From: Octopus sinensis
Lineage: Eukaryota
NCBI RefSeq assembly: GCF_006345805.1
Contig: NC_043026.1
Span: 9,858,001-9,922,000 of the forward strand
Length of the DNA stretch: 64,000 bases
Direction of reading: 5' to 3'
Under the pieces are notes generated by a model that saw only the letters and a list, made by a program, of their open reading frames with translations, did not search any database and was not told where the DNA came from. Positions 37,198-62,938 of the stretch are shown here, piece after piece (position 1 is the first letter of the stretch; every line of letters starts with the position of its first letter). A program made the position numbers and the translations under genes.

Positions 37198-37314
37198 GCT
37201 TACGACCATATCATGTTGAAAGCACCGGTTCTGGTCCGACCACCGAAGTTAAGCAACATCGAGCCTAGTTAGTACTTAGATGGGTGACCGCTTGGAAGCT
37301 AGGTGCTGTAAGCA
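37198..37314 (+). rRNA. 5S rRNA: 5S rRNA-like copy (dispersed gene, pseudogene or head of a 5S-derived SINE)
   Basis: GCTTACGACCATATCATGTTGAAAGCACCGG...GAAGTTAAGC...GTTAGTACTTAGATGGGTGACCGC...GTAAGCA; terminal helix pairs; box A and box C recognisable; short deletion near the 3' end; TTTT follows. Confidence 0.85.
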
Positions 37315-38890: not shown

Positions 38891-40013
38891 GAAGGTACTT
38901 TGCCAGGTTAGCTTTTCTTTCTTTAAGTTCTAGAAATATTCTCAAATACACTCCAACCACTAAAATGAGCAGAAATCAAGATATGATTTGATCCTTTCAC
39001 CTGCACGATTTTCACAAAGAAAATGAAAAAAACTCGGATTTTTGCGTGGAATCAAGTACCCTTACCTCCTAAACATGCTGCAAACTCCTTATTTTTGTTC
39101 GGAAAAGTGTGTGTGTGTGGGGGGGGGACAGCCCTCCAATATCCTGGAATCATTGGAAATTTCTTGGTCAAACTGAAGGTTTGACCTAAGCAAAAAAAAA
39201 AAAAAAGTAGTAAACGAATATGAACGGGAGGTGGGGAGAGGACTCGGAAAATTCACACGATCAATCTCACAGAATCCGAAATCTCAACGTTGAGCCCCGG
39301 TCACAAAAATTGAAAAAGAAATGGTGTAATAGGTGTAAAACAACATGTAGTAAACGAATATGAAAAAAAAAAAAAAATGCGAGCCCTGGTAAACGTGAGG
39401 CGGGTGAGAGGACTCGGAAAATTCCCATCAAGAATGTTCCAAGTCATCTCACCACTTCCTCGTTCGCCGGCGAAATATTTTCCTTCATGTTCGTTTGCTA
39501 TGCATGTTGATGTACACCTATTGCACTCTTTTACTTGTTTCAGTCATTTAACTGTGGCCATGCTGGAGCACTGCCTTTAGTCAAGCAAATCGACCCCAGG
39601 ACTTATTCTTTGTAAGCTCAGTACTTATTCTGAAAGGTTCAGCCTCCCAAGTTCGTTTATCAGCCCTTCCCCCCATGGGTGTCCCATTTCCACGTGTTCC
39701 CTCTACTTTGAGGGATCAGCACTTCCTTAGGGAGCTGTTGGCATCCAGCTTAATTGATCTCATTAGAAATGAATTTGTATTTTTTAAGTAACCACAATAC
39801 CTTACACTGTTGTTTCTCTATAATTTCAGAACATCAGACAACATTGACATAACAGAAGAAACATCCTCAACATCTACCACGTTTCAAAGACTAAAAGAAG
39901 AATATTGTACAAAACAGATGTATCAGATTGTGTTTTAAAAATCTGTTGAAGAATTCTTGTGAAACAATTCCTCAGAAGAAAAATATATAAACTGATATTT
40001 GAGAGGAAAAATA

Positions 40014-41852
40014 ATGGAAAAGAGTGAGAAAAGTGTAGAATTGATTTCCCCTGAACCCATGACAAAAGAGATGAGTTCATACGATTGTGATATCTGTACA
40101 AAGTCCTTCCTTCAAAAAAGTGACCTAACTATGCACAAACGTACTCATACAGGAGAGAAACCCTATCCTTGTGACATTTGTGGTAAATCATTCTCTTGCA
40201 GTAGTAAGTTATCTACACACATACGTTCCCATACAGGAGAGAAGCCGTATCATTGTGATATCTGTGGTAAATCATTTTCTCGAAGGAGTAATGTTACTGT
40301 GCACAAACGTATTCATACAGGAGAGAAACCATATCCCTGTGATATCTGTGGTAAATCATTCCCTCAAAGTAATCATTTAACTGAACACAAACGTATTCAT
40401 ACAGGAGAGAAACCTTATCATTGTGACATCTGTGGTAAATCATTCTCTCAAAGTATTCACTTATCTACACACATACGTATTCACACAGGAGAGAAACCAT
40501 ATAATTGTGATATCTGTGGTAAACAATTCTCTGACAATACTGCCTTAACAAAACACATACGTATTCATACAGGAGAGAAGCCATATCACTGTGATACTTG
40601 TGGTAAACGATTTTCTAGTAATAGATCCTTAACATCACATAATCATACTCACACAGGAAAGAAGCCATATCATTGTGATATCTGTGGTAAACCATGCTCT
40701 AATAAGGGCTACTTAACTGTACACAAACGTATTCATACAGGAGAGATGCGATATCATTGTGATATTTGTGGTAAACCATGTTCTAATAAAAGTGTCTTAA
40801 CATCACACAGGCGTATTCATACGGGAGAGAAACCATATCATTGTGATATTTGTGGTAAATCATTCTCTCAAAGTAATACATTGAAGGGACACAAATCCAT
40901 TCATACAGGAGAGAAGCCATATCACTGTGACATCTGTGGTAAATCATTTTCTCAAGGTAGTCACTTAACTATACATAAACGTATTCATACAGGAGAGAAG
41001 CCATATCATTGTGATATCTGTGGTAACCCATGTCCTAATAAAAGTGTCTTAACATCACACAGAATTATTCATGTGGGAGAGAAGCCATATCACTGTGATA
41101 TCTGTGGTGAATCATTCTCACATATTAATATCTTAACTACACATAAACGTATTCATACAGGAGAGAAAACATATCATTGTGATATTTGTACAAAATCATT
41201 CTCTGAAAGTTCTGCCTTAACAAAACACAAACTTATTCATACAGGAGAGACACCATATCATTGTGATATTTGTGGTAAACCATGCTCTAATAATAGTGCC
41301 TTAATGTCACACAAACGTATTCATTCAGGAGAGAGACCATATCATTGTGATATCTGTGGTAAATCATTCTCTCAAAGTAATACTTTAAAGGGACACAAAC
41401 GTATTCATACAGGAGAGAAGCCATATCAGTGTGATATCTGTGGTACATCATTCTCTCAAGGCAATCACTTAACTGTACATAGACGTATTCATACAGGAGA
41501 AACGCCATATCAATGTGATATTTGTGGTAAACCATGCTCTAATAATAGTGCTTTAACATCACACAGACGTGTTCATACAGGAGAGAAACAGTATCATTGT
41601 AATGTCTGTGGTAAATCATTCTTTGAAAATACTGCCTTAACAAAACATAGTCGCACTCATACAGGAGAGAAGCCATATCACTGTGATATCTGTGGTGAAT
41701 CATTCTCTCATAATAATATCTTAACTGCCCATAAACGTATTCATACAGGAGAGAAGCCATATCACTGTGATATTTGTGGTAAACACTTTTCTCACAATAG
41801 TAACTTTACAAAACATAAATATATTCATACTAGGGAGAAAGGAAAAGAGTAA
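40014..41852 (+). CDS. C2H2 zinc-finger protein (ZNF unit 3), 21 fingers
   Basis: Intact [15 protein letters not shown]...HTREKGKE*; acceptor at 39829. Confidence 0.95.
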
Positions 41853-42021
41853 TTACTGCAGTTTCTTATTTGCCATATATGTTTAATATTCCTCTCTGTT
41901 ATACAATGGAAATTATGACTGAAGTATTTCCAAAATTATTAGATGTTTTCCTTTTTGCAGTTTTCTCTTTCTGTTGCTTCCTTGAACTCAAACATTTATC
42001 TCTATTTAACCAACTCACATC

Positions 42022-42069
42022 GTCTCTGATGAAGGGATATCCATAATATCCCAGAAACGGCTGTAAAAC
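42022..42069 (+). ncRNA. Minimal hammerhead, paralogue of 48288 with a stem I mismatch
   Basis: Identical core and stems II/III; 3' strand of stem I is aaac instead of agac. Confidence 0.62.
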
Positions 42070-42147
42070 TATATCTATATCTCCTTATAAATGTCCTGAA
42101 AACCCGTCACAACCTTGACTTTGTTATCTCTTTTTGTCTAATTTATA

Positions 42148-42211
<64 letters not shown>

Positions 42212-42220
42212 CATATATAC

Positions 42221-43995
42221 TAGAGGTTGGGGTCCACCAGGGTTCAGTACTCAGCCCCCTCCTATTTATCATAGTCCTACAGGCAATTACGGAGGAATTC
42301 AAGACAGGTTGTCCTTGGGAGCTCCTCTACGCTGACGACCTTGCTCTTATTGCTGAGTCACTATCAGAGCTGGAGGAGAAGTTCCAGGTGTGGAAGGAGG
42401 TTTAGAATCGAGGGGCCTTAGAGTCAACCTAGCTAAAACCAAAGTACTAATAAGTAGGAAGGTAGACAATCCACAAATGTCTTCAGGAAGATGGCCCTGC
42501 TCGATCTGTAGAAAAGGTGTACGTAAAAACTCTATAAGATGTACCCAGTGTAAGCTATGGACACATAAGAGGTGCAGCAATGTCAAATATAGGCTAACTG
42601 GGAAGATAGTTTTTGTATGTGGCAGATGCTCAGGAGCATTAACCTCCGAAAATCTGCAGAAAATAACTTCAGTCACTTTCCAAGGGGAAAAACTAGAAGT
42701 AGTTGATGGCTTCCGTTATCTAGGTGACCAAGTCAGTAGTGGAGGTGGGTGCGCTGAAAGTGTAACTGCTAGAATAAGAATAGCCTGGGCAAAGTTTAGG
42801 GAGCTCTTACCTCTGCTGGTGACTAAAGGCCTCTCGCTCAGAGTAAAAGGCAGACTGTATGATGCGTGTGTACGAACAGCCATGCTACATGGCAGTGAAA
42901 CATGGGCCGTGACTGCCGAGGACATGTGTAAGCTCGTGAGGAATGAAGCCAGTATGCTCCGATGGATGTGTAATGTCAGTGTACATACTCGACAGAGCGT
43001 TAGCACCTTGAGAGAAATGTTGTACCTAAGAGGCATCAGTTGTGGTGTGCAAGAGAGACGATTGCGCTGGTATGGTCATGTGGCGAGAATGGATGAAGAT
43101 AGGTGTGTGAGAAAGTGCCAATCCTTAGCAGTTGAGGGAACCCGTGGAAGAGGTAGACCCAGGAAAACCTGGGACGAGGTGGTGAAGCACGACCTTCGAA
43201 CTTTAGGCCTCACTGAGGAAATGACCAGCGACCGAGACCTTTGGAAATATTCTGTACGTGAGAAGACCAGGCAGGACAAGTGAGCCCAGCCCACTTATGA
43301 ATGCCTTTCCTCCCTTGGACACAAAGACCTGTTGAGGCAAGCGAAGTCGATATAGAACCTCATCCGACGACAGGCACCCATGCCAACCCCCCTTTGCTTG
43401 CGAAGACATGTTGGGGCAAGCGAAATCGAAATCGAAGTCAAAATCGAATTGAACCAGCCAGGATCCCTGGTCTGGTGGTACGTAAAAAGCACTATCCGAC
43501 TCGTGGCCGATGCCAGTGCCGCCTCCGCTGGCTTCCGTGCCGGTGGCACGTAAAATACACCAATCTGACCGTACAACAGGCACCCATGCCAACCCCCTTG
43601 CTTGCGAAGACATGTTGGGGCAAGCGAAATCGAAATCGAATTGAACCAGCCAGGATCCCTGGTCTGGTGGTACGTAAAAAGCACCATCCGACTCGTGGCC
43701 GATGCCAGCACCGCCTCGTCTGGCTTCCGTGCCGGTGGCACATAAAATACACCAATCCGACCGTGGCCGTTGCCAGCCTCGCCTGGCACCTGTGCAGGTG
43801 GCACGTAAAAAGCACCCACTACACTCACGGAGTGGTTGGCGTTAGAAAGGGCATCCAGCTGTAGAAACACTGCCAGATAAGACTGGAGCCTGGTGCAGCC
43901 TTCTGGCTTCCCAGATCCCCGGTCGAACCGTCCAACCCATGCTAGCATGGAGAACGGACGTTAAACGACGACGATGATGATGATGATGATGATGA

Positions 43996-43998
<3 letters not shown>
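42221..43998 (+). mobile_element. 5'-truncated RTE-clade LINE: RT C-terminal half, Cys-rich insert, 3' UTR, (GAT)n tail
   Basis: GVHQGSVLSPLLF, LLYADDL, FRYLG, RRLRWYGHVAR, GRGRPRKTW motifs; 1-nt frameshift near 42400. Confidence 0.93.
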
Positions 43999-44073
<75 letters not shown>

Positions 44074-44095
44074 TATAATATATATATATATATAT

Positions 44096-44126
<31 letters not shown>

Positions 44127-44694
44127 GTAGTATGTAATCATATCAAAGGGAAATGGAATTTAATTAAAATAAAAAACATTTAACTAAAAATTTACATTTC
44201 CAGTGGTCTAACATGTAAAAAAGTTTAGTCAAAGAGACTATATATTAGTCATACGATACAGTGTATATTTAAACACATAAGGAATCCACGAAAATCTAAT
44301 TCGGATTCAGCGTCAAATATCCCATCAATATGAAACATTGAAATATTCTTTTCAAGATAATTGTAAACAGTAATTAAAACCACAAAGATCCAGTTATCCT
44401 TCTCGTATCTCCTTTTCCTCCATGTGATTCCAGTGCGTAACTTGTACTTATTTAATCGATCCCGAAAGGATGAAAGGCAAAGACGAACTCGGCGGAATTT
44501 GAACTCAGAACGTAGCGGCAGACGAAATTACCGCTCAGCTTTTCGCCCAGCGTGCTAAGATTTCTAATAATTCGCTGCCCTTACTCAGATATAGATATTA
44601 ACATAAACTCACGTAAATATAATCAGGTGCAATAAACGAAAATATAAAGGGATGTAAGGAGAGTTATGTGTATCAATTATTACTGCCAGGAGAC

Positions 44695-44870
44695 ACGCAT
44701 GCGCATTGGACGTACTTCCTAATTCATGTTCGTTTTCGTTTTCGATGTCCAGGTGCGTGAATTCCTCGAAATCTTCTTCTAATACTTTTATAATTCTTAT
44801 ATCGCATTTCTCAACTGCCAGACACACACATATATAACAACACTATCCTTTATGAAGCATTTCCGTAAGT
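44695..44870 (+). promoter_or_regulatory. ZNF unit 4 promoter cassette (donor at 44865)
   Basis: acgcatgcgcattggacgtacttcc...ttccGTAAGT. Confidence 0.65.
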
Positions 44871-46567
44871 ATTAAGCAAAGAAAATTTTCATTGTTTTTA
44901 ATTCTGTAGACTTTCGGTCTTTGGCGCGTCGATTCTTTGTGTCTTTTCTTACGTTTTATGAATGGGAGATGTCCTTGATTAGTGCGGGATTTGACTGCTA
45001 TTTCTAGCTATGAATGGGAGATGTCCTTGATTAGTGCGGGATTTGGCTGCTATTTCTAGCTATGGAAGGCAGATGTCCTTGATTTGTGCGGAATTGCTCA
45101 TATACATAAGTTGGATAATATCCGATTTGAGTGGGATTTTTTCCAAGTCACGGAAATTGATTTCCACTCGCTTTTACGGCACCAAAAACCATTAAAATTA
45201 GGCGAACCTAGCGCCTAGTCCCCCCCCCCCAACAGACCTATTTTTTTTTTCTTTTGCCTGTCTCCCATATTTTCGATGACGGAGATACCGAATATGCAAA
45301 AAAAAAAAGTACGTTTTCAAAATTTTTAATTCCCCTCCAACTTGATTTTTAACTTTTTTTCGAAAGTTTTTGTTTCAATCCACGTTGAAAAATATGGAGA
45401 TTAAGAATATGGTGTGTGTGGTGGGGAGAACAAATTTTAGTCTGAAATTCTTTATGAAAAACTCCAGAATTGATCATTAACGCCCCCTCGTCATTCCATC
45501 ATGCTGTCTAAATGTGAAAACGAATGGCTGTTTTGTCCGTTTTCGCATGCGTATAATAATAATAATGAAGTTATTGTATACAGTGCTCAGGTACACCACA
45601 ACTTGTCAGAAAGTGCGTATAAAAGATATGCAGTAAAGTACAAATGTCTGGGAAGTGAACAGTGTATGAGTCAGATACATGCTTGTGTGTGTGTATGGAG
45701 GGAAGAAAATCAGGTGTAGATTTGTGCGGGATTTGGCTGCTATTTTTGAGCCAAAAAATTAACTAACTAACTACAGTTTGTTCGAATGAGCAGAGAAAGA
45801 AGTACAAAAAAATAGATTTTACATATCTGTCGTAGAAGAGTGGTCCCGGGGCGCGCACTCACGCATCCAATTATTTTACGATCAACCAATTATTTTATCT
45901 TGTAAATTGAAGAATCTGATGTTATTTGGAACTAAAATTGAGAAATTTGGGTAATTTTAGCCAATCAACAGTGTGGCATTAGCAGCTAGTTACCATGACA
46001 CCAGGATGCTGTGTTGTGGTTCACTTCACTTGTTTATCAGCCCTTCCACCCATGTCTTCACGGGTGTCCCATTTCCACGTGTTCCCCCTACTTTGCGGGA
46101 TCAGCACTTCCTTAGGGAGCTGTTGACATCCAGCTTAATTGATCGCATTAGAAATGAATTTGTATTTTTTTACTAACCACAATATCTTACACTGTTGTTT
46201 CTCTATAATTTCAGAACATCAGACAACATTGACATAACAGAAGAAACATCCTCAACATCTACCACGTTTCAAAGACTAAAAGAAAATATTGTACAAAACA
46301 GATGTATCAGATTGTGTTTTACAAATCTGTGGATTTCTGTGAAACATTTGCTCTGCAATAGTATTATTTGTAAAATTTCTGAACATCACCGACTGGAGTG
46401 TCAAGAAGAGGGGCCTGTGTGTTGATTAAAGTTGGATAAATTGATTTAAGTGTTGCTAAACAAAGGTGACACTAGACAGAAATACAACAGTAGAAGTGTA
46501 TATAAGGAATAAAGTGTAAAAACAAAAGCAAGAAAAATATATAAATTGGGATTTGAGAGGAAAAATA

Positions 46568-47314
46568 ATGGAAAAGAGTGAGAAAAGTGTAGAATTGATT
46601 TCCCCTGAACCCAAGACAAAAGAGATGAGTTCATACGATTGTGATATCTGTACAAAGTCCTTCCTTCAAAAAAGTGACCTTCTTATGCACAAATGTACTC
46701 ATAGAGGAGAGAAACCGTATCCTTGTGACATTTGTGGTAAATCATTCTCTTGCAGTAGTAAGTTATCTACACACATACGTTCACATACAGGAGAGAAACC
46801 ATATCATTGTGATATCTGTGGTAAATCATTCTCTCGAAGGAGTAATGTTACTGCGCACAAACGTACTCATACAGGAGAAAAACCATATCATTGTGACATC
46901 TGTGTTAAATCATTCTCACAAAATATTCACTTAACTGATCACAAACGTATTCATGCAGGAGAGAAACCTTATCATTGTGATATTTGTGGTAAATCATTCT
47001 CTCAAAGTATTCGTTTATCTACACACATACGTATTCATTCAGGAGAGAAACCATATCATTGTGATATCTGTGGTAAATCATTCTCTGACAATAGAAACTT
47101 AACTGTACATAAACGTATTCATACAGGAGAGAAACCATATCATTGTGATATCTGTGGTAAATCATTCTCTCGAAGTAGTCACGTTACTGTGCACAAACGT
47201 ATTCATACAGGAGAGAAACCATATCACTGTGATATTTGTGGTAAACACTTTTCTCACAATAGTAACTTTACAAAACACAAATATATTCATACTAGGGAGA
47301 AAGGAAAAGAGTAA
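46568..47314 (+). CDS. C2H2 zinc-finger protein (ZNF unit 4), 8 fingers
   Basis: Intact ORF with the same leader and the same C-terminus as unit 3; acceptor at 46214, TACTAAC at 46171. Confidence 0.93.
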   Translation: MEKSEKSVELISPEPKTKEMSSYDCDICTKSFLQKSDLLMHKCTHRGEKPYPCDICGKSFSCSSKLSTHIRSHTGEKPYHCDICGKSFSRRSNVTAHKRTHTGEKPYHCDICVKSFSQNIHLTDHKRIHAGEKPYHCDICGKSFSQSIRLSTHIRIHSGEKPYHCDICGKSFSDNRNLTVHKRIHTGEKPYHCDICGKSFSRSSHVTVHKRIHTGEKPYHCDICGKHFSHNSNFTKHKYIHTREKGKE

Positions 47315-47689
47315 TTTCTGCAGTTTCTTATTTGCCATATATGTTTAATATTCCTCTGTGTTATACAATGGAAATTATGACTGAAGTATTTCCAAAATTA
47401 TTAGATGTTTTCCTTTTTGTAATTTTCTCTTTCTGCTGCTTCCTTGACCATTCATGCATTCCTTTTCCATGGTGTAAGGACTTCTGTACCAAAACTTCTC
47501 ATCCTCCTGACGATCCTACACTTTATTCTTTATTGGAGACTGCATCCACAAATTTCTGTGAATTTATTGCTTAGAGCAGTAGAAGCAGAGAGACAGTCTT
47601 GTAAGAATGGGAGCAGTTGGTAGCTGGAACAGAAGCTAGGAAACAGGACACTTTAGCAAGGAAAAAGTAGAGTATGTATATGTATGATT

Positions 47690-48405
47690 TTGATATACGT
47701 ACATACCCATCTACATATGTGCTGGTGCATCTCTTCCTATACACCCCTCCCAACTCCTCTCCTATCCTCCCCTCACATCTTGACCATCAACTAACACTTC
47801 TTTTCTCACTTCTTTCACCCTTTCTTCACTTTCCTTTTTTTTTCACCCTTTTCAATGTTTTCTACTCTCTTTTTATTATTTTTTGTCCCTTTTCTTTTTT
47901 CCTCTCATTTTCTCTTCCTGTCTTCATTTTGACCAACCTCCTCATTCTAATCATGCACATCTCTTCCCCCACCCCCATCTATCCACAGATACTCCCAATA
48001 CATTCTCAAATTTTCATTCACACCACAAAACCCCTTTGAATGAGCAACACCGAATCCACGGCACCACACTTAGAAATAACTAAACATGAACTACTATCGA
48101 AACTTACATACCATGTATAGGAAACTTTTTTACCACTTCTATACACCACTTTACTTGAATAATGGAACTGCAACTACAATATTTTGTATTTGACTTCTAC
48201 TTTCATTCTCTTATTTCCCTCTATATTCCCTACAATAATTCCTTATTTCGAACTCAAATATTTATCTCTATTTAACCAACTCACATCGTCTCTGATGAAG
48301 GGATATCCATAATATCCCAGAAACGGCTGTAAGACTATATCTATATCTCCTTATAAATGTCCTGAAAACTCCTCACAACCTTGACTTTGTTATCTCTTTT
48401 GTCTA

Positions 48406-48410
<5 letters not shown>
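47690..48410 (+). mobile_element. Penelope-like element terminal (pLTR) remnant carrying a hammerhead; shorter paralogue at 41985-42145
   Basis: Pyrimidine-rich tract, hammerhead motif, ends in a (TA)n tract. The assignment rests mainly on the ribozyme; the 5' boundary is approximate. Confidence 0.5.
48288..48335 (+). ncRNA. Minimal type I hammerhead ribozyme (Penelope-type)
   Basis: gtct-CTGATGA-a-gggatat-ccata-atatccc-a-GAAA-CggctG-TA-agac. Confidence 0.72.
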
Positions 48411-48451
<41 letters not shown>

Positions 48452-48556
48452 TTATATATATATATACTTATATATATATATACTTATATATATATATACT
48501 TATATATATATATACTTATATATTATATATATATTATATATATATACTTATATATT

Positions 48557-48587
<31 letters not shown>

Positions 48588-48588
48588 C

Positions 48589-48644
<56 letters not shown>

Positions 48645-48782
48645 ACACACACATATGCTGATACAAGACCCACATTAAACTCCTCATATTATTATCGAAC
48701 CAAGAGTTTAACTACGTTCTGTCCATAGCACTTACTTAGTGTTACCAGCCACTCTTTGTGTCTTCTAGATACCAATACACTT

Positions 48783-50376
48783 ATCATCATCATCGTCGTT
48801 TAGCGTCCGTTTTCCATGCTAGCATGGGTTGGACGGTTCTACTGGGGTCTGTGAAGCCAGAAGGCTTCATCAGGCCCAGTCAAATCTGGCAGTGTTTCTA
48901 CGGCTGGATGCCCTTCCTAACGCCAACCACTCCGTGAGTGTAGTGGGTGCTTTTTACGTGCCACCCGCACACTTCATCATCATCATCATTTAGCGTCCGT
49001 TTTCCATGCTAGCATGGGTTGGACGGTTCTACTGGGGTCTGTGAAGCCAGAAGGCTTCATCAGGCCCAGTCAAATCTGGCAGTGTTTCTACGGCTGGATG
49101 CCCTTCCTAACGCCAACCACTCCGTGAGTGTAGTGGGTGCTTTTTACGTGCCACCCGCACTGGTGCCAGACAGAGCTGGCAAACGGCCACGAACGGATGG
49201 TGCTTTTTATGTGCCACCGGCACGAGGGCCAGGCGAGGCTGGCAACGGACACGAAACGGGGCGGTGCTGGCAACGGTCGCGAAACGGAAAGTTCTCTTAC
49301 ATGCCACCGGCACTGGTAACACATCTGCAATTTCCATTGATCGATTTCCATTGATCGATTTCGATTCTGATCCTCACTTGCCTCAATGGGTCTTCACAAG
49401 CAGAGTTTCGACATGCCACCGGCACTGGTAGCACATCCGCAATTTCCATTGATCGATTTCGATTCTGATCCTCACTTGCCTCAACACGTCTTCACAAGTA
49501 GAGTTTTGTGTCCCAAGAAGGGAAGGTATGCATACGTAGGCTGGCTCCATCCCATGTAGAAGGCCACGGGTTGTGGACTCACTTGTCCTGCCGGGTCTTC
49601 TCGCGCACAGCACACTTCCAGAGGTCTCGGTCTCTAGTCATTTCCTCAGTGAGACCTAAAGTTCGAAGGTCGTGCTTCACCACCTCGTCCCAGGTTTTCC
49701 TGGGTCTGCCTCTTCCACAGGTTCCCTCAACCGCTAGGGTGTGGCACTTTTTCACACAACTAACTTCATCCATTCTCGCCACATGACCATACCAGCGCAA
49801 ACGTCTCTCTTGCACACCACAACTGATGCTTCTTAGGTCCAGCTTTTCTCTCAAGGTACTTACACTCTGCCGAGTGTGAGTACCGGCATTACACATCCAT
49901 CGGAGCATACTGGCTTCATTCCTAGCAAGCTTACGCATATCCTCAGCAGTCACGGCCCATGTTTCACTGCCATGTAGCATGGCTGTTCATACACACGCAT
50001 CATACAGTCTGCCTTTCACTCTGTGCGAGAGGCCTTTTGTCACCAGCAGAGGTAAGAGCTCTCTGAACTTTGCCCAAGCTATTCTTACTCTAGCAGTTAC
50101 ACTTTCAGCACACCCGCCCCCGCTGCTGACTTGGTCACCTAGGTAACGGAAATTATCAACTATTTCTAGTTTTTCTCCCTGGAAAGTGACGGAAGTTGGT
50201 CTCAGAGCATTTTCAGTGTTTATTGTTCCTGAGCATCTGCCACATACAAAAACCATCTTCCTAGTTAGCCTTCCTTTGACATTGCTGCATCTCTTATGTG
50301 TCCATAGCTTACACTTGGTGCATCTTATAGAGTTTCTACCTACACCTTTTCTACAGATCGAGCAGGGCCATCTACC
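48783..50376 (-). mobile_element. 5'-truncated RTE-clade LINE, same family, with duplicated tail
   Basis: ORFs 49987-50375 and 49579-49980 match the 42390-43283 protein; (CAT)n tail at 48783. Confidence 0.93.
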
Positions 50377-50464
<88 letters not shown>

Positions 50465-55047: not shown

Positions 55048-56621
<1,574 letters not shown>

Positions 56622-57716
56622 AAAGGGTTGGTTCTCTTTTCTTATTTGCTTTATATGTTTACTATTCCTGTGTGTCATGCAATGGAAATTATGACTGAAG
56701 TACTTCCAAAAATTTTAGATTTTTAAAATTTTGTTTTTGCTCTTTTGAACTGCTGCTTCCTTGACCATTCATTCATTCCCTTTCCTTGGTGTAAGGACCT
56801 CCATACCAAAACTCGTTGTCTTCCTGGCAACCCTACACATTGTTCTTTATTATATACTGCATTCCCAAATTTCTGTGAATTTATTGCTTATAATCTTTTA
56901 AATGCTTCATCCATTAAATATATCATACAATAACAAGTTATGGCTGTTTCATTCACAGGAATTTTGTAAGATTGTTAAATATGTGCTTAAACACTAACCT
57001 CAAGTACAAAAGAGAAGAGACCACACAGTAAGGTCATGAGGCATAAGTATAGTTCAGTTACCAGACTAATTCCTTGTTAGTGTCTGAAGAATAGTTTCTT
57101 TAAATGAAACTTTGCAGAGATACATTTTCGGTTGTCTAGATTATGATGATTTTCGTAAAACTGAGAAAAAACGTTTTGGAAGAGATTCTGGTCATTCTCA
57201 ACCCCACCCTGTTTTTGTTACTACTAACTTCAGAACCTGGGGAAACCTACCAGCCACATGATTACCTATGAGTCTGATTACAGAATCCTGATTGGCTAAA
57301 TTCTCACCAGAAAGCAGGACAGGTAGATACTTGTAAATGCAAAGTTGGTCAATGGTAAAGAATGGACTTCACAGCATAGGTTATCAGTTACTGACTTGCG
57401 ACTGACAGCAAGAAAGTCACAGATTTCAACCAATCTGTAACGGAATGTCCTCGAAGCTCATGCATACTTTAGAGATGCACTAATTAAAGTCTTTGATGAA
57501 AAGAAAGAGAGGGAGGACCACTGGTAGGTCAGATGGGGCAATCCATGTTATGCTGCAAAACATATCTGTGGCTGGTGCCATGTGAAGGGTGACATGATGG
57601 TGGAGCAGGGAAATATACTGATCAGTAGAAACAGAGAGGCACTGTTGGAAGAACGGGAGCAGTTGGTAGTTAGAAGAGAAACTAGGAAACAGGACTCTCT
57701 AGTAAGCAGAGTGTGA

Positions 57717-58035
57717 GGGCGCGTGGCTTAGTGGTTAGGGCATTCGGCTCATGATCGTAAGGTTGTGAGTTCGATTCCCAGCGACGCGTTGTGTCCTTGA
57801 GCAAGACACTTTATTTCACGTTGCTCCAGTCCACTCAGCTGGCAAAAATGAGTTGTACTTGTATTTCAAAGGGTCAGCCTTGTCACTCTCTGTGTCACGC
57901 TGATTATCCCCGAGAACTACGTTAAGGGTACACGTGTCTGTGGAATGCTCAGCCATTTGCACGTTAATTTCACGAGCAAGCTGTTCCTTTGATCGTATCA
58001 GCTCGTCCGTAACCGTCGTCGTAACCGGCGGAGTC
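57717..58035 (+). mobile_element. tRNA-derived SINE family C; related copy at about 1990-2300
   Basis: gggcgcgtggcttagtggttagg...gagttcgattccc tRNA-like head, then ccttgagcaagacactttatttcacgttgctccagt shared with 2050-2095. Confidence 0.78.
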
Positions 58036-58744
58036 AAAGAAAGTAAGCAGAGTACAAAGTGGACCAAAAATATGAAGTGTTCTGGTTTGGAGAAATTGAT
58101 GTGTGAGGTGTGTGTGTGTGTGTGCAGACGGATAATGACTGACTTGCATTCAGTGATTCTGAAAGGAAAGAGCCCTGGAAGTGCATGAACTTGGATTCTT
58201 CACCTTCTACATCTTGTCCTCCGACTCAACTTGCACAACGACAGCACCGTACCTACCCCCTACTGTCTGGAACACTACCCCTTCTGCTGCTGTCCGTAAT
58301 GCCTCCTCCACGGTTTCCACTTTTCCTTTACCTGTCGCAAACACCCTACACGTTACCGCTCTCCCTTTAAAACAGCCCATCGCCCCCCACCCCACCCCGG
58401 CAGAGACAACTCCACGCTCCGCCCACCTTCCTCACCCATCCCCAAGACCTCTGGCAACTTAGCAAGGTTAACCTCTCCGCCTGTTGGCCTCACCACTCCT
58501 GCACAACTCATTCCTCCGTTCAACGCCACATCCAGTCCGTCGACCGGTCTCACCAGCTCCTCCTCCTCCGAAGTCGACAGGTCCGACTCACCGAGGCCAG
58601 AACACCCGCTCCTCCCTGCCATCTCTCGAACCACACCACCGCTGCGAACAGCAAAAATCCAAAACAATTACAAAATACAAATCTAACCCCGAAACATTCA
58701 ACCCACACAGACGCAAAAACGCGAAGCATGAGACTCGTCGTGCT

Positions 58745-60340: not shown

Positions 60341-61210
60341 AGAATTGGCATTTCAAACGTTTAAACAACACTTTCAAATTATCTTTCTGGACAAAGGCTA
60401 ATGTTAGTGTCCCCTATTCTGTGGTTTTATTTCAAACTGTTACACAATGTGGAGGGGTCAGTGTAGTTTACAAATATGTCAGCTTCACACAAGATTCTGT
60501 GGAGTAAATTTTGATGTCCATTGTCTATGTTGGCATGGTTGGATGGTTTGAGCAGGGCTGGGAAGCTGCAACAGACTCCAGTTTGATTCCTCATCGTTTC
60601 TACAGTTGGATGCCCTTCCCAGTGCCAACCCCTTCGCAGTGCACAGGGTGCTTTATATGGTACTGCACAGGCACTTTTAAATGGCACTGCCTGTCCGCTT
60701 TTATGAGGAACAATCACAATTGCTTTTCGTCACCAGAGGGATGAGTGTACTTCTGCTGTGGAGTACGGGTCTTCTTGAGTACAGCAAGGTGCCAGACATC
60801 TCGATCTTTGTCATATCACCTGAAACTTTCAGCATCTTAAGTTCGTTTATCAGCCCTTCCACCCATGTCTCCTTGGGTGTCCCACTTCCACGTGTTCCCT
60901 CTACCTTGAGGGATCAGCACTTCCTTAGGGAGCTGTTGGCATCGAGCTTAATTGATCTCATTAGAAATGAATTTGTATTTTTTAAGTAACCACAATATCT
61001 TACACTGTTGTTTCTCTATAATTTCAGAACATCAGACAACATTGACATAACAGAAGAAACATCCTCAACATCTACCACGTTTCAAAGACTAAAAGAAAAT
61101 ATTGTACAAAACAGATGTATCAGATTGTGTTTTACAAATCTGTGGAAGAATTCTTGTGAAACAATTCCTCAGAAGAAAAATATATAAACTGATATTTGAG
61201 AGGAAAAATA

Positions 61211-62938
61211 ATGGAAAAGGGTGAGAAAAGTGTAGAATTGATTTCCCCAGAACCCATGACAAAAGAGATGAGTTCATACGATTGTGATATCTGTAGAAAG
61301 TCCTTCCTTCAAAAATGTGACCTAACTATGCACAAACGTATTCATAGAGGAGAGAAACCCTATCCTTGTGACATTTGTAGTAAATCGTTCTCTTGCAGTA
61401 GTAAGTTATCTCTACACCAACATATTCATACAGAAGAGAAACCCTATCAGTGTGATGTCTGTGATAAATCATTCTCTGATAATGGTGCTCTAACTAAACA
61501 CAAACGTATTCATACAGGAGACAAACCTTATCAGTGTGATGTCTGTGGTAAATCATTCTTTAACATTTGCTATGTAACAAAGCACAAACGTTCTCATACA
61601 GGAGAGAAGCCATATCATTGCGATATCTGTGGTAAATCGTTCTCTCGAAGTAGTTACGTTACTGTGCACAAACGTATTCATACAGGTGAGAAACCATATC
61701 ATTGTGATGTCTGTGGTAAATCCTTCTCTCAAAGTATTCACTTAACTGGACACAAACGTATTCATGCAGGTGAGAAACCTTATCATTGTGACATCTGTGG
61801 TAAATCCTTCTCTCAAAGTATTCACTTATCTACACACATACGTATTCACACGGGAGTGAAGCCATATACTTGTGATATCTGTGGTAAATCATTCCCTGAA
61901 AATAGTAAATTAACAAGACACATACGAATTCATACAGGAGAGACACCATATCACTGTGATATCTGTGGTAAATCATTCTCTAATAATAATGCCTTAATAT
62001 CTCACAGACGTATTCATACTGGAGAGAAGCCATACCATTGTGATATTTGTGGTAAATCATTCTCTCAAAGTAACACCTTAAAGGGACACAGACGTATTCA
62101 TTCAGGAGAGAAGCCATATCAGTGTGATGTCTGTGGTAAAACATTCTCTCTAAATGGTGACTTAGAAAAACACAAACCTATTCATACAGCAGAGAATCCG
62201 TATCACTGTGATATTTGTGGTAAATCATTCTCTGGCAATTGTGCCTTAGTAGCACACAAACGTATTCATACAGGAGAAAGACCATATCATTGTGATATCT
62301 GTGGTAAATCATTCTCTCAAAGTTATCAGTTAACTGTACACAGACGTATTCATACAGGGGAGAAGCCATACCTTTGTGATATTTGTGGTAAATCATTCTC
62401 TCAAAGTAACTCCTTAAAGGTACACAAAAGTATTCATGCAGAGGAGAAACCATATGACTGTGATGTCTGTGGTAAATCATTCTCTCTAAATGGTGACTTA
62501 ACAAAACACAAACCTATTCATTCACTGTGATATTTGTGGTAAGCCATTCTCTGGCAATTGTGCCTTAGTAGCACACAAACGTATCATACAGGAGAGAGAC
62601 CATATCATTGTAATATCTGTGGTGAATCGTTCTCTCATAATAGTATCTTAACTGCGCACAAACGTATTCATACAGGGGAGAAGCCATACCATTGTGATAT
62701 TTGTGGTAAACCATGCTCTAATAATAGTGCTTTAACATCACACAGACGTATTCATACTGGAGAGAGACCATATCATTGTAATATCTGTGGTGAATCATTC
62801 TCTCATAATAGTATCTTAACTGCGCACAAACGTATTCATACAGGAGAGAAGCCATATCATTGTAATATCTGTGGTAAATTCTTCTATCAATATAGTAAGT
62901 TAACAAAACACAAACATATTCATAGTAGGGAGAAATGA
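61211..62938 (+). CDS. C2H2 zinc-finger gene (ZNF unit 6): 15-finger ORF to 62530, then about 5 more fingers to 62938 after a linker deletion and a frameshift
   Basis: ORF 61211-62530; TGEKPY linker missing at about 62520 and 1-nt loss at about 62585; terminal HSREK* as in unit 5; acceptor at 61027. Confidence 0.85.

What the first reader, a model, noticed from the sequence alone, without database searches (positions are those of the whole stretch)
41853..48335. Sense-strand hammerheads downstream of ZNF units 3 and 4: possible ribozyme-defined 3' ends
Seen: the same minimal hammerhead lies 170 nt after the unit 3 stop (42022-42069) and about 970 nt after the unit 4 stop (48288-48335). A deletion in unit 3 moved it close to the stop. 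I saw no AATAAA between either stop and the motif. The unit 4 copy has a perfect stem I; the unit 3 copy has one mismatch. Inference: the motif may lie in the 3' UTRs and tune mRNA stability or 3' end formation, and transcripts of the two paralogues could dimerise through stem III. Discontinuous 3' UTR hammerheads that lower expression are known in rodent Clec2 genes; I know of no such report for cephalopod ZNF clusters.
Basis: partly seen in the sequence, partly recalled or inferred. Interest (0 to 1): 0.72.

Follow-up and report, generated by a model that had tools for sequence, protein, structure and literature searches.

The report
Penelope hammerhead relic in zinc-finger UTRs
The two hammerhead-ribozyme motifs are one leftover end of a common jumping gene that landed behind a zinc-finger gene and was duplicated with it; the gene's RNA runs into the motif, but the motif is likely a passenger that rarely cuts.

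Summary
Observation confirmed, special function not supported. Both motifs are complete type I hammerheads. They belong to one 5'-truncated Penelope-like retrotransposon (47728-48780) of the Hydra clade: longer copies elsewhere carry RT and GIY-YIG upstream with the Hydra motifs. The family is dispersed: 2,304 first-look candidates and 106 exact 31-mer copies. One insertion was duplicated with the gene; unit 3 then lost 804 nt. No enrichment: only units 3 and 4 of 58 ZNF arrays in 464 kb carry it, and 0 of 40 other copies lie behind a ZNF array. The motif is no better conserved than its flanks. Lack of AATAAA/ATTAAA is ordinary (22-30% of 977-nt windows). Where the RNA ends is unresolved. Published metazoan PLE hammerheads cut poorly unaided. 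The scan noted other PLE hammerheads in this genome before, none here.

The parts
39996..41852 (+). ZNF unit 3 coding exon (618-aa stop-to-stop frame, 21 C2H2 fingers by regex)
41853..41985 (+). Unit 3 host-derived 3' flank, ending at the 804-nt deletion junction
   Evidence: junction also in run X17
41984..42140 (+). Remnant of the Hydra-clade PLE pLTR in unit 3 (matches 48250-48410), followed by (TA)n
42022..42069 (+). Type I hammerhead, unit 3 copy: core intact, stem I 3 of 4 pairs; predicted cut after 42065
42222..43980 (+). 3' fragment of an unrelated LINE inserted in the (TA)n after unit 3 (RTE-type label recalled, not tested; Pfam gave only a weak PHD hit); a second, inverted copy lies at about 48783-50377
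44807..44864 (+). Upstream exon piece of unit 4 (or a close paralogue) with splice donor at 44864, joined to 46215
   Evidence: X4 contig; joint in X16 and X2, 21 nt on the short side
46520..47314 (+). ZNF unit 4 coding exon (264-aa stop-to-stop frame, 7 fingers by regex)
47315..47727 (+). Unit 4 host-derived 3' UTR; at 47573/47574 it lacks a block of about 730 nt present in unit 5 (56891-57619) that holds the shared ATTAAA
   Evidence: covered by contigs
47728..48780 (+). 5'-truncated Hydra-clade Penelope-like element: 3' UTR/pLTR (47728-48410), (TA)n (about 48410-48650), pLTR continuation (48655-48778)
48288..48335 (+). Type I hammerhead, unit 4 copy: core and stem I intact; loop III carries one A>G change from the family palindrome; predicted cut after 48331
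56913..56918 (+). ATTAAA about 290 nt after the unit 5 stop (also 32910 in unit 2, 63229 in unit 6): candidate ancestral poly(A) signal absent from units 3 and 4
   Evidence: function inferred, not tested

Best explanation
The two hammerheads are the terminal-repeat ribozyme motif of one truncated Hydra-clade Penelope-like retrotransposon that sits about 410 nt behind a zinc-finger gene and was duplicated with it, and in the mRNA it is likely an inactive or rarely cutting passenger. Steps: (1, shown) the sequence 47728-48780 is the 3' end of a dispersed RT/GIY-YIG element with Hydra-clade motifs; (2, inferred from divergence: about 6% from the family consensus, about 3.5% between units) it inserted sense-strand behind the ancestor of units 3 and 4 before their duplication; (3, shown) an 804-nt deletion shortened the unit 3 copy and one substitution weakened its stem I; (4, shown by contigs for unit 4, inferred for unit 3) the transcript reads into the relic, (5, inferred) probably because the lineage lost an upstream ATTAAA; (6, inferred) with a 2-bp stem III the motif cannot fold as a monomer, needs a partner strand and possibly the element's protein, so most transcripts would stay uncut and end by ordinary polyadenylation at or beyond the relic (candidates: TATAAA 48352, ATTAAA 48674).
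For: Family membership: 41 places at E<=0.001 from 40 scored of 2,304 candidates, 87-93% identical, on many chromosomes; 106 exact copies of a 31-mer, 0 in the reversed control; variable 5' truncation and a common 3' end in (TA)n. Link to a coding PLE: the GIY-YIG C-terminus lies upstream of the same 3' region in L057, L089, L055; 12 of 20 loci chosen by that EN piece continue collinearly into the window's element; 4 of 20 loci chosen by the RT piece hold RT, EN and the window-type 3' region in order, and L121 also has the pLTR end in front of the ORF. No ZNF link: 2 of 58 arrays in 464 kb (one event); 0 of 40 pattern-chosen copies have a sense finger motif in the 7 kb fetched (39 with about 5.9 kb upstream, L085 with 1 kb), 0 of 26 blast-chosen copies within 1.5 kb; 0 of 16 other paralogue loci, L135-L140 and L143-L152. 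No extra constraint: unit 4 differs from consensus at 1 of 48 motif positions vs 18 of 298 flank positions (Fisher p=0.49); unit 3 vs 4, 1 of 48 vs 8 of 230 (p=1.0); 39 of 82 other copies also keep core and full stem I. Folding: monomer hammerhead fold is 2.8 kcal/mol above the MFE for unit 4 and 7.6 for unit 3, and stem I pair probability is 0.00 in 220 nt of context; with 10-60 nt of flank the active dimer is no longer the best dimer fold. Literature: single metazoan PLE min-HHRs showed no detectable cleavage and dimers low activity (PMC4209133); the Anolis PLE HHR did not cut without the PLE protein and no RNA-seq reads ended at its site (PMC11167929).
Against: The motif is inside a transcribed 3' region, both cores are intact (11 of 19 copies chosen without regard to the motif keep the core, 5 of 19 core plus full stem I), the loop III change keeps all 8 intermolecular pairs through G-U (duplex -9.7 vs -11.1 kcal/mol), and the isolated unit 4 homodimer's MFE is exactly the double hammerhead. 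Units 3 and 4 are 2 of only 4 arrays among 58 without AATAAA/ATTAAA in 1.2 kb, though 16-23% of random windows lack them too. The conservation tests have little power on 48 nt and a recent duplication. The published activity data are for other families; this 2-bp-stem-III variant was not assayed.
Confidence: 0.86

Rival explanations
1. Co-opted ribozyme: after losing their poly(A) signal, units 3 and 4 use the captured hammerhead to end or destabilise their mRNAs, cutting as dimers. In a unit 3/unit 4 heterodimer the unit 3 catalytic half would cut the unit 4 site with a perfect stem I, while the unit 3 site would be cut poorly.
For: Motif lies in the transcribed 3' region; shared ATTAAA missing in both units but kept in 12 of 15 aligned paralogues; intact cores; predicted dimer folds for isolated 48-mers, with exactly one stem I formed in the heterodimer; precedent for 3' UTR hammerheads lowering expression in Clec2d (review PMC2950038, passages).
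Against: Single insertion, no recurrence in 56 other arrays; no excess conservation; stem I is not formed in context and flanks out-compete the active dimer; trans-dimerisation of two low-abundance mRNAs through 8 bp is unfavourable (inference); PLE hammerheads are weak or protein-dependent in vitro; no intact ORF of this family was seen among 40 EN/RT-chosen loci that could supply the protein (top-scoring candidates only).
Confidence: 0.09
2. The element is a non-autonomous retrozyme or SINE-like repeat rather than the end of a coding PLE.
For: Most copies are short and non-coding; a preprint argues that animal retrozymes derive from PLE pLTRs (10.64898/2026.07.22.740005, part 1 of 5 read).
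Against: Copies are not tandem monomers of fixed length; they are variably 5'-truncated and grade upstream into EN and RT sequence. The preprint's criterion of at least two consecutive HHR units is not met in the window.
Confidence: 0.03
3. Chance motif, or an assembly duplicate that makes one locus look like two.
For: Rfam gave no hammerhead hit; folding z-scores are weak, -0.7 to -1.5; no compensatory changes among 14 aligned copies.
Against: Full core, three helices and palindromic loop III match the PLE-HHR description; units 3 and 4 differ by about 3.5% and both occur on scaffold C9038 and in run X17. Lack of covariation is expected for neutrally decaying copies of one family.
Confidence: 0.02

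Closest known systems
Hydra-clade EN+ Penelope-like elements, including Hydra-1_Obim of Octopus bimaculoides (Craig et al. 2021, PMC8557442; section 11 read, other passages and supplement searched)
   Same: Single RT + C-terminal GIY-YIG ORF; RWK, DKT, CxCX5C linker, no CCHH, CxxC and CxH around the catalytic E and N; canonical hammerhead near the 3' end; (TA)n at the ends.
   Different: A different family from Hydra-1_Obim: its listed hammerhead and protein read differently, and two 12-13 nt motifs of our hammerhead gave 0 hits in the supplement text. Our element is about 4 kb (L121) with a long microsatellite-laden 3' UTR, against <3 kb typical. All copies seen are broken.
Minimal and short-helix-III type I hammerheads of metazoan PLE pLTRs (Cervera and De la Pena 2014, PMC4209133; parts 1-2 of 4 read)
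   Same: 7-bp helix II, 4-bp helix I, unpaired base before stem II, G10.1-C11.1 pair, palindromic positions 15.2-16.2 and loop 3; mostly single motifs from truncated PLEs; dimer-dependent.
   Different: Here a copy lies in a host gene's transcribed 3' region and was duplicated with the gene; loop III is a G-U quasi-palindrome.
Discontinuous Clec2 3' UTR hammerheads of rodents (Martick et al. 2008, seen only through review PMC2950038 passages)
   Same: Hammerhead core in the 3' region of a tandem gene family's mRNA.
   Different: Clec2 motifs are discontinuous, found across several mammals and shown to lower reporter output by 80%; these are compact, of recent transposon origin, in one paralogue pair, with no conservation signal and no assay.
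Metazoan non-LTR retrozymes (10.64898/2026.07.22.740005, part 1 of 5 read; PMC7229834 search listing only)
   Same: Type I hammerhead with palindromic loop III; PLE-related.
   Different: Retrozymes are tandem non-coding monomers; this is a single truncated end of a coding PLE.

Membership tests
Type I hammerhead (PLE-type) | Core CUGANGA, GAAA and NUH in type I order with stems I-III | tested here: met
   unit 3 has one mismatch in stem I
Type I hammerhead (PLE-type) | Long helix II, short helix I, unpaired base before stem II, palindromic helix/loop III | tested here: met
   7 bp, 4 bp, unpaired A; family loop is a perfect 8-nt palindrome, window copies a G-U quasi-palindrome
Type I hammerhead (PLE-type) | Structure supported by covariation | tested here: inconclusive
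   0 compensatory pairs in 14 copies; 96% of cells paired, equal to shuffles; copies are too alike to inform
Type I hammerhead (PLE-type) | Self-cleavage | not testable with these tools
   only folding energies
EN+ Penelope-like element | RT plus C-terminal GIY-YIG upstream of the hammerhead-bearing repeat | tested here: met
   in family copies L094, L119, L121, L130, L132; Pfam GIY-YIG E=0.004, below cutoff; Pfam RT not hit, but YRDD and homology to 560-800 aa proteins at E down to 2e-90. The window's own copy has no coding part.
EN+ Penelope-like element | pLTR sequence on both sides of the ORF; 5' truncation; inverted partner copies | tested here: met
   L121 has pLTR end and tail before the ORF and the full 3' repeat after it; inverted partners in L108, L126, L132
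Hydra clade | RWK and DKT motifs in the N-terminal region | tested here: met
   RWK and DKT in L121; DKT in L129, L130
Hydra clade | CxCX5C linker; no CCHH between GIY and YIG; CxxC and CxH flanking E and N | tested here: met
   linker in L115, L126, L129, L130; one Cys only before YIG in L095; CKLCLKE and N..CNH
Hydra clade | (TA)n insertion preference; length generally <3 kb | tested here: inconclusive
   (TA)n at the 3' end in the window and most copies, though part of it may be internal to the pLTR; length about 4 kb exceeds the typical value
Hydra clade | Placement in an RT phylogeny | not tested
   no tree built; assignment rests on motifs and visual comparison with the paper's alignment
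Clec2-like regulatory 3' UTR hammerhead | Located in the host mRNA | tested here: met
   contigs cover unit 4 from the last finger into stem II in X15; run type is not on record, RNA inferred from a splice joint in X16 and X2
Clec2-like regulatory 3' UTR hammerhead | Conserved across paralogues or species beyond neutral expectation | tested here: not met
   one duplicated insertion, 2 of 58 arrays; no excess conservation; other species not available
Clec2-like regulatory 3' UTR hammerhead | Cleavage-dependent lowering of expression | not testable with these tools
   needs reporter assay
Non-LTR retrozyme | Tandem non-coding monomers, each with a hammerhead | tested here: not met
   single truncated copy per unit; family is protein-coding upstream

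The most novel reading that the evidence does not exclude
A zinc-finger gene pair that lost its poly(A) signal captured a Penelope hammerhead in its 3' UTR, and the mRNAs are cut only when a partner strand pairs with the palindromic stem III: the paralogue's mRNA, or any transcript of the same retrotransposon family, possibly helped by PLE protein. That would make mRNA 3' end or half-life depend on transposon or paralogue RNA, a trans-triggered ribozyme switch on a transcription-factor gene.
Probability: 0.07. Interest if true: 0.75.

Novelty: new member of a known kind. Interest (0 to 1): 0.2.

Why it matters
As it stands it is ordinary: one of thousands of Penelope ends, caught in a 3' UTR. 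It adds a second Hydra-clade family to an octopus-type genome and shows that hammerhead hits near genes in such genomes should first be checked against PLE background. Its modest value is as a ready test case: the role of PLE hammerheads is open, and here one lies in a host transcript with a known predicted cut site and a natural stem I variant. If cleavage were shown in vivo it would be a rare example of a transposon ribozyme shaping a host mRNA.

Tried and rejected
No RNA holder listed: the look-up of sequencing runs had no holder on record as RNA; RNA nature was inferred from a splice joint only. Contig stops are not 3' ends: X15 and (by depth arithmetic) X16 stop at about 48317, X1/X2/X3 at 48223-48224, X4 at 47844, and no listed piece crosses 48331; but 48195-48383 is almost fully tiled by 31-mers shared with other family copies, so the graph fragments there, table 8 is cut, and a filter can drop contigs that reach the (TA)n. 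This says nothing for or against cleavage. Contig depth was not used to infer library type. No unit 3 junction was listed for X1, X3, X15 at 95%, and at 98% could not show it; absence is not evidence. False lead: the RT next to a hammerhead in L039 and the intact 782-aa ORFs it retrieves belong to another PLE family with a different 3' repeat; RT pieces in L061 and L077 are also unrelated neighbours. Rfam scan: no hammerhead family hit. Pfam on RT pieces: nothing; EN query against longer proteins: nothing. Covariation count uninformative. The CTGAAGA..GAAAC at 57084 lacks a proper stem II and is not conserved in paralogues: rejected. ATTAAA conservation was not shown to exceed chance, since the 15 paralogues are not independent. 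Rows dropped: own copies L001-L004, L133, L134, L141, L142 were left out of family counts (one search's totals still held 3 of them; one search is the corrected count); unit 1 was left out of the alignment; only 40 of the 100 listed 31-mer hits were fetched, picked by hand (20 from C1-C3, 20 from smaller chromosomes). Not-in-print check: searches listed no title or abstract on a PLE hammerhead in a cephalopod ZNF 3' UTR; only listings were seen for most hits, and subscription journals are not covered. The bioRxiv preprint's supplements were not seen.


Full report
Observation. Each is a compact type I hammerhead: 4-bp stem I, CUGAUGA, an unpaired A, 7-bp stem II, GAAA, 2-bp stem III with a 4-nt loop, and GUA, with the cut predicted after 42065 and 48331. 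The two 48-mers differ at 1 base, which breaks one stem I pair in unit 3. Unit 3's 3' flank is unit 4's minus 804 nt; the junction has 2 nt of microhomology and also appears in scaffold C9038 and in a contig of run X17. There is no AATAAA or ATTAAA between stop and motif, but 75-79% of random 173-nt windows and 22-30% of 977-nt windows from this cluster lack them too. Rfam listed no hammerhead hit.

What the motif belongs to. A 171-nt query around the unit 4 motif gave 2,304 first-look candidates in the genome; the 40 scored gave 41 places, the non-self ones 87-93% identical and spread over many chromosomes. A 31-mer with the family's loop occurs exactly 106 times, 0 in the reversed control. 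Copies share a 3' end in (TA)n, often followed by a 125-nt continuation, and have ragged 5' ends; the window's copy spans 47728-48780. Walking upstream through longer copies reached the C-terminus of a GIY-YIG endonuclease. Of 20 loci chosen by that piece, 12 continue collinearly into the window's element, 1 is rearranged and 7 stop earlier. Of 20 loci chosen by the RT piece, 4 hold RT, EN and the window-type 3' region in order; L121 is full length, with the pLTR end in front of the ORF and the hammerhead at the far end. The family shows RWK, DKT, YRDD, a CxCX5C linker, no CCHH, and CxxC/CxH around the catalytic residues, the features by which Craig et al. define the Hydra clade (PMC8557442, section 11). 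Their supplement lists Hydra-1_Obim from Octopus bimaculoides, which has another hammerhead and protein, so ours is a second family. No tree was built. All 40 EN/RT-chosen copies are broken, and the searches' matches are 75-92% identical to the query copies. An RT beside a hammerhead in L039 was a false lead from another family.

No link to ZNF genes. In 464 kb (window plus the next 400 kb) I counted 58 finger arrays; only units 3 and 4 carry family sequence, and no other array has a descriptor-level hammerhead within 2 kb downstream. None of 16 other paralogue loci has it within about 1.5 kb. Conversely, 0 of 40 pattern-chosen copies have a sense finger motif in the 7 kb fetched (39 with about 5.9 kb upstream, one with 1 kb; one has a single antisense motif), and 0 of 26 blast-chosen copies within 1.5 kb. 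The list of exact 31-mers has none on C27 or C30, which hold most paralogues; 0.6 were expected on C30, so this shows no enrichment rather than depletion. The two motifs are one insertion duplicated with the gene: about 6% from the family consensus against about 3.5% between units.

No sign of selection, with low power. Unit 4 differs from consensus at 1 of 48 motif positions and 18 of 298 flank positions (p=0.49); units 3 and 4 differ at 1 of 48 and 8 of 230 (p=1.0). Among 82 other copies 58 keep the core and 39 core plus full stem I; among the 19 chosen without regard to the motif, 11 and 5. No compensatory changes were seen in 14 copies.

Is it in the mRNA? For unit 4, yes as far as contigs can show. 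Overlapping locus-matching contigs run from the last finger (47219) to 48317 in X15, 48289 in X16, 48224 in X1 and X2, and with small gaps to 48223 in X3; X4 reaches 47844 (4 studies). The runs are not on record as RNA, but X16 and X2 hold a GT..AG joint 44864->46215 across an intron (the joint may come from a close paralogue). X16's breaks at 47419 and 48289 coincide with the edges of 31-mer blocks shared with unit 3, which suggests unit 3 RNA reaches the motif too (inference). The data cannot place the 3' end (see Tried and rejected). A possible reason for the long UTR: an ATTAAA about 290 nt after the stop is kept in 12 of 15 aligned paralogues and lies in a block of about 730 nt that unit 4 lacks, and unit 3's deletion removes the whole region. 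Its function as a poly(A) signal is inferred only.

Would it cut? As a monomer the hammerhead fold is 2.8 (unit 4) and 7.6 (unit 3) kcal/mol above the MFE, and stem I has probability 0.00 in 220 nt of context. Isolated 48-mers do prefer the double hammerhead (-29.3 kcal/mol for unit 4 with itself; the unit 3/unit 4 pair forms the one stem I that presents the unit 4 site), and the loop III change costs only 1.4 kcal/mol in the 8-bp duplex. With 10-60 nt of native flank other dimer folds win by 2-16 kcal/mol. Published metazoan PLE hammerheads gave no cleavage as monomers and little as dimers (PMC4209133, parts 1-2 of 4); the Anolis one needed the PLE protein, and no RNA-seq reads ended at its site (PMC11167929, passages). 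Clec2 hammerheads, by contrast, are discontinuous, found in several mammals and active in reporters (PMC2950038, passages).

Verdict. A real hammerhead motif, of known kind and origin: the pLTR of an old Hydra-clade PLE captured in the 3' region of one ZNF gene and copied with it. Passenger, 0.86; co-opted 3' end or stability switch, about 0.09. Searches listed no report of this arrangement in cephalopods, but the arrangement is expected by chance for a family with thousands of copies. Earlier scan notes show no finding near this window and several other PLE hammerhead families in this genome; I did not test them. Interest 0.2.

Noticed in passing
window 37198-37314 (+): Near full-length 5S rRNA match (Rfam 98 bits) between ZNF units 2 and 3; gene, pseudogene or SINE head not determined.
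   Followed up: no
G000:C9038:33.4-57.6 kb: Unplaced scaffold carries near-identical copies of units 3-6 (unit 4 flank 99.7-100%); haplotig or true duplicate.
   Followed up: partly
window 55291-56621 and 61193-62937; ends of units 1 and 2: Finger arrays change frame (unit 5 has two overlapping ORFs; unit 6 continues in another frame after 62530): pseudogenes, alleles or assembly errors.
   Followed up: no
L041-L043, L049-L051: Open 777-782 aa RT + GIY-YIG frames of two other PLE families with a CX4CxxC linker (Neptune-like by motif, no tree), some with pLTR direct repeats and a long upstream ORF; no canonical hammerhead core by my regex.
   Followed up: partly
L011, L020, L107, L116: Other type I hammerhead-like motifs with different stems and, in L011 and L020, palindromic loop III; likely other PLE families.
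   Followed up: no
P0003: An Octopus bimaculoides protein named 'GATA zinc finger domain-containing protein 14-like' is 81% identical to this PLE family's ORF, so it is probably a misannotated Hydra-clade fragment and the family is shared with that species.
   Followed up: partly
window 42485-43288 and 49574-50377: Two 89%-identical LINE 3' fragments in opposite orientation directly behind the two PLE relics; independent insertions or a local inversion.
   Followed up: partly
window about 57714-58040: tRNA-headed SINE-like insert with an apparent 12-nt target duplication behind unit 5.
   Followed up: no
G000:C30:10.158-10.199 Mb: Seven 14-finger arrays spaced about 6.4 kb apart, a young tandem expansion.
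   Followed up: no
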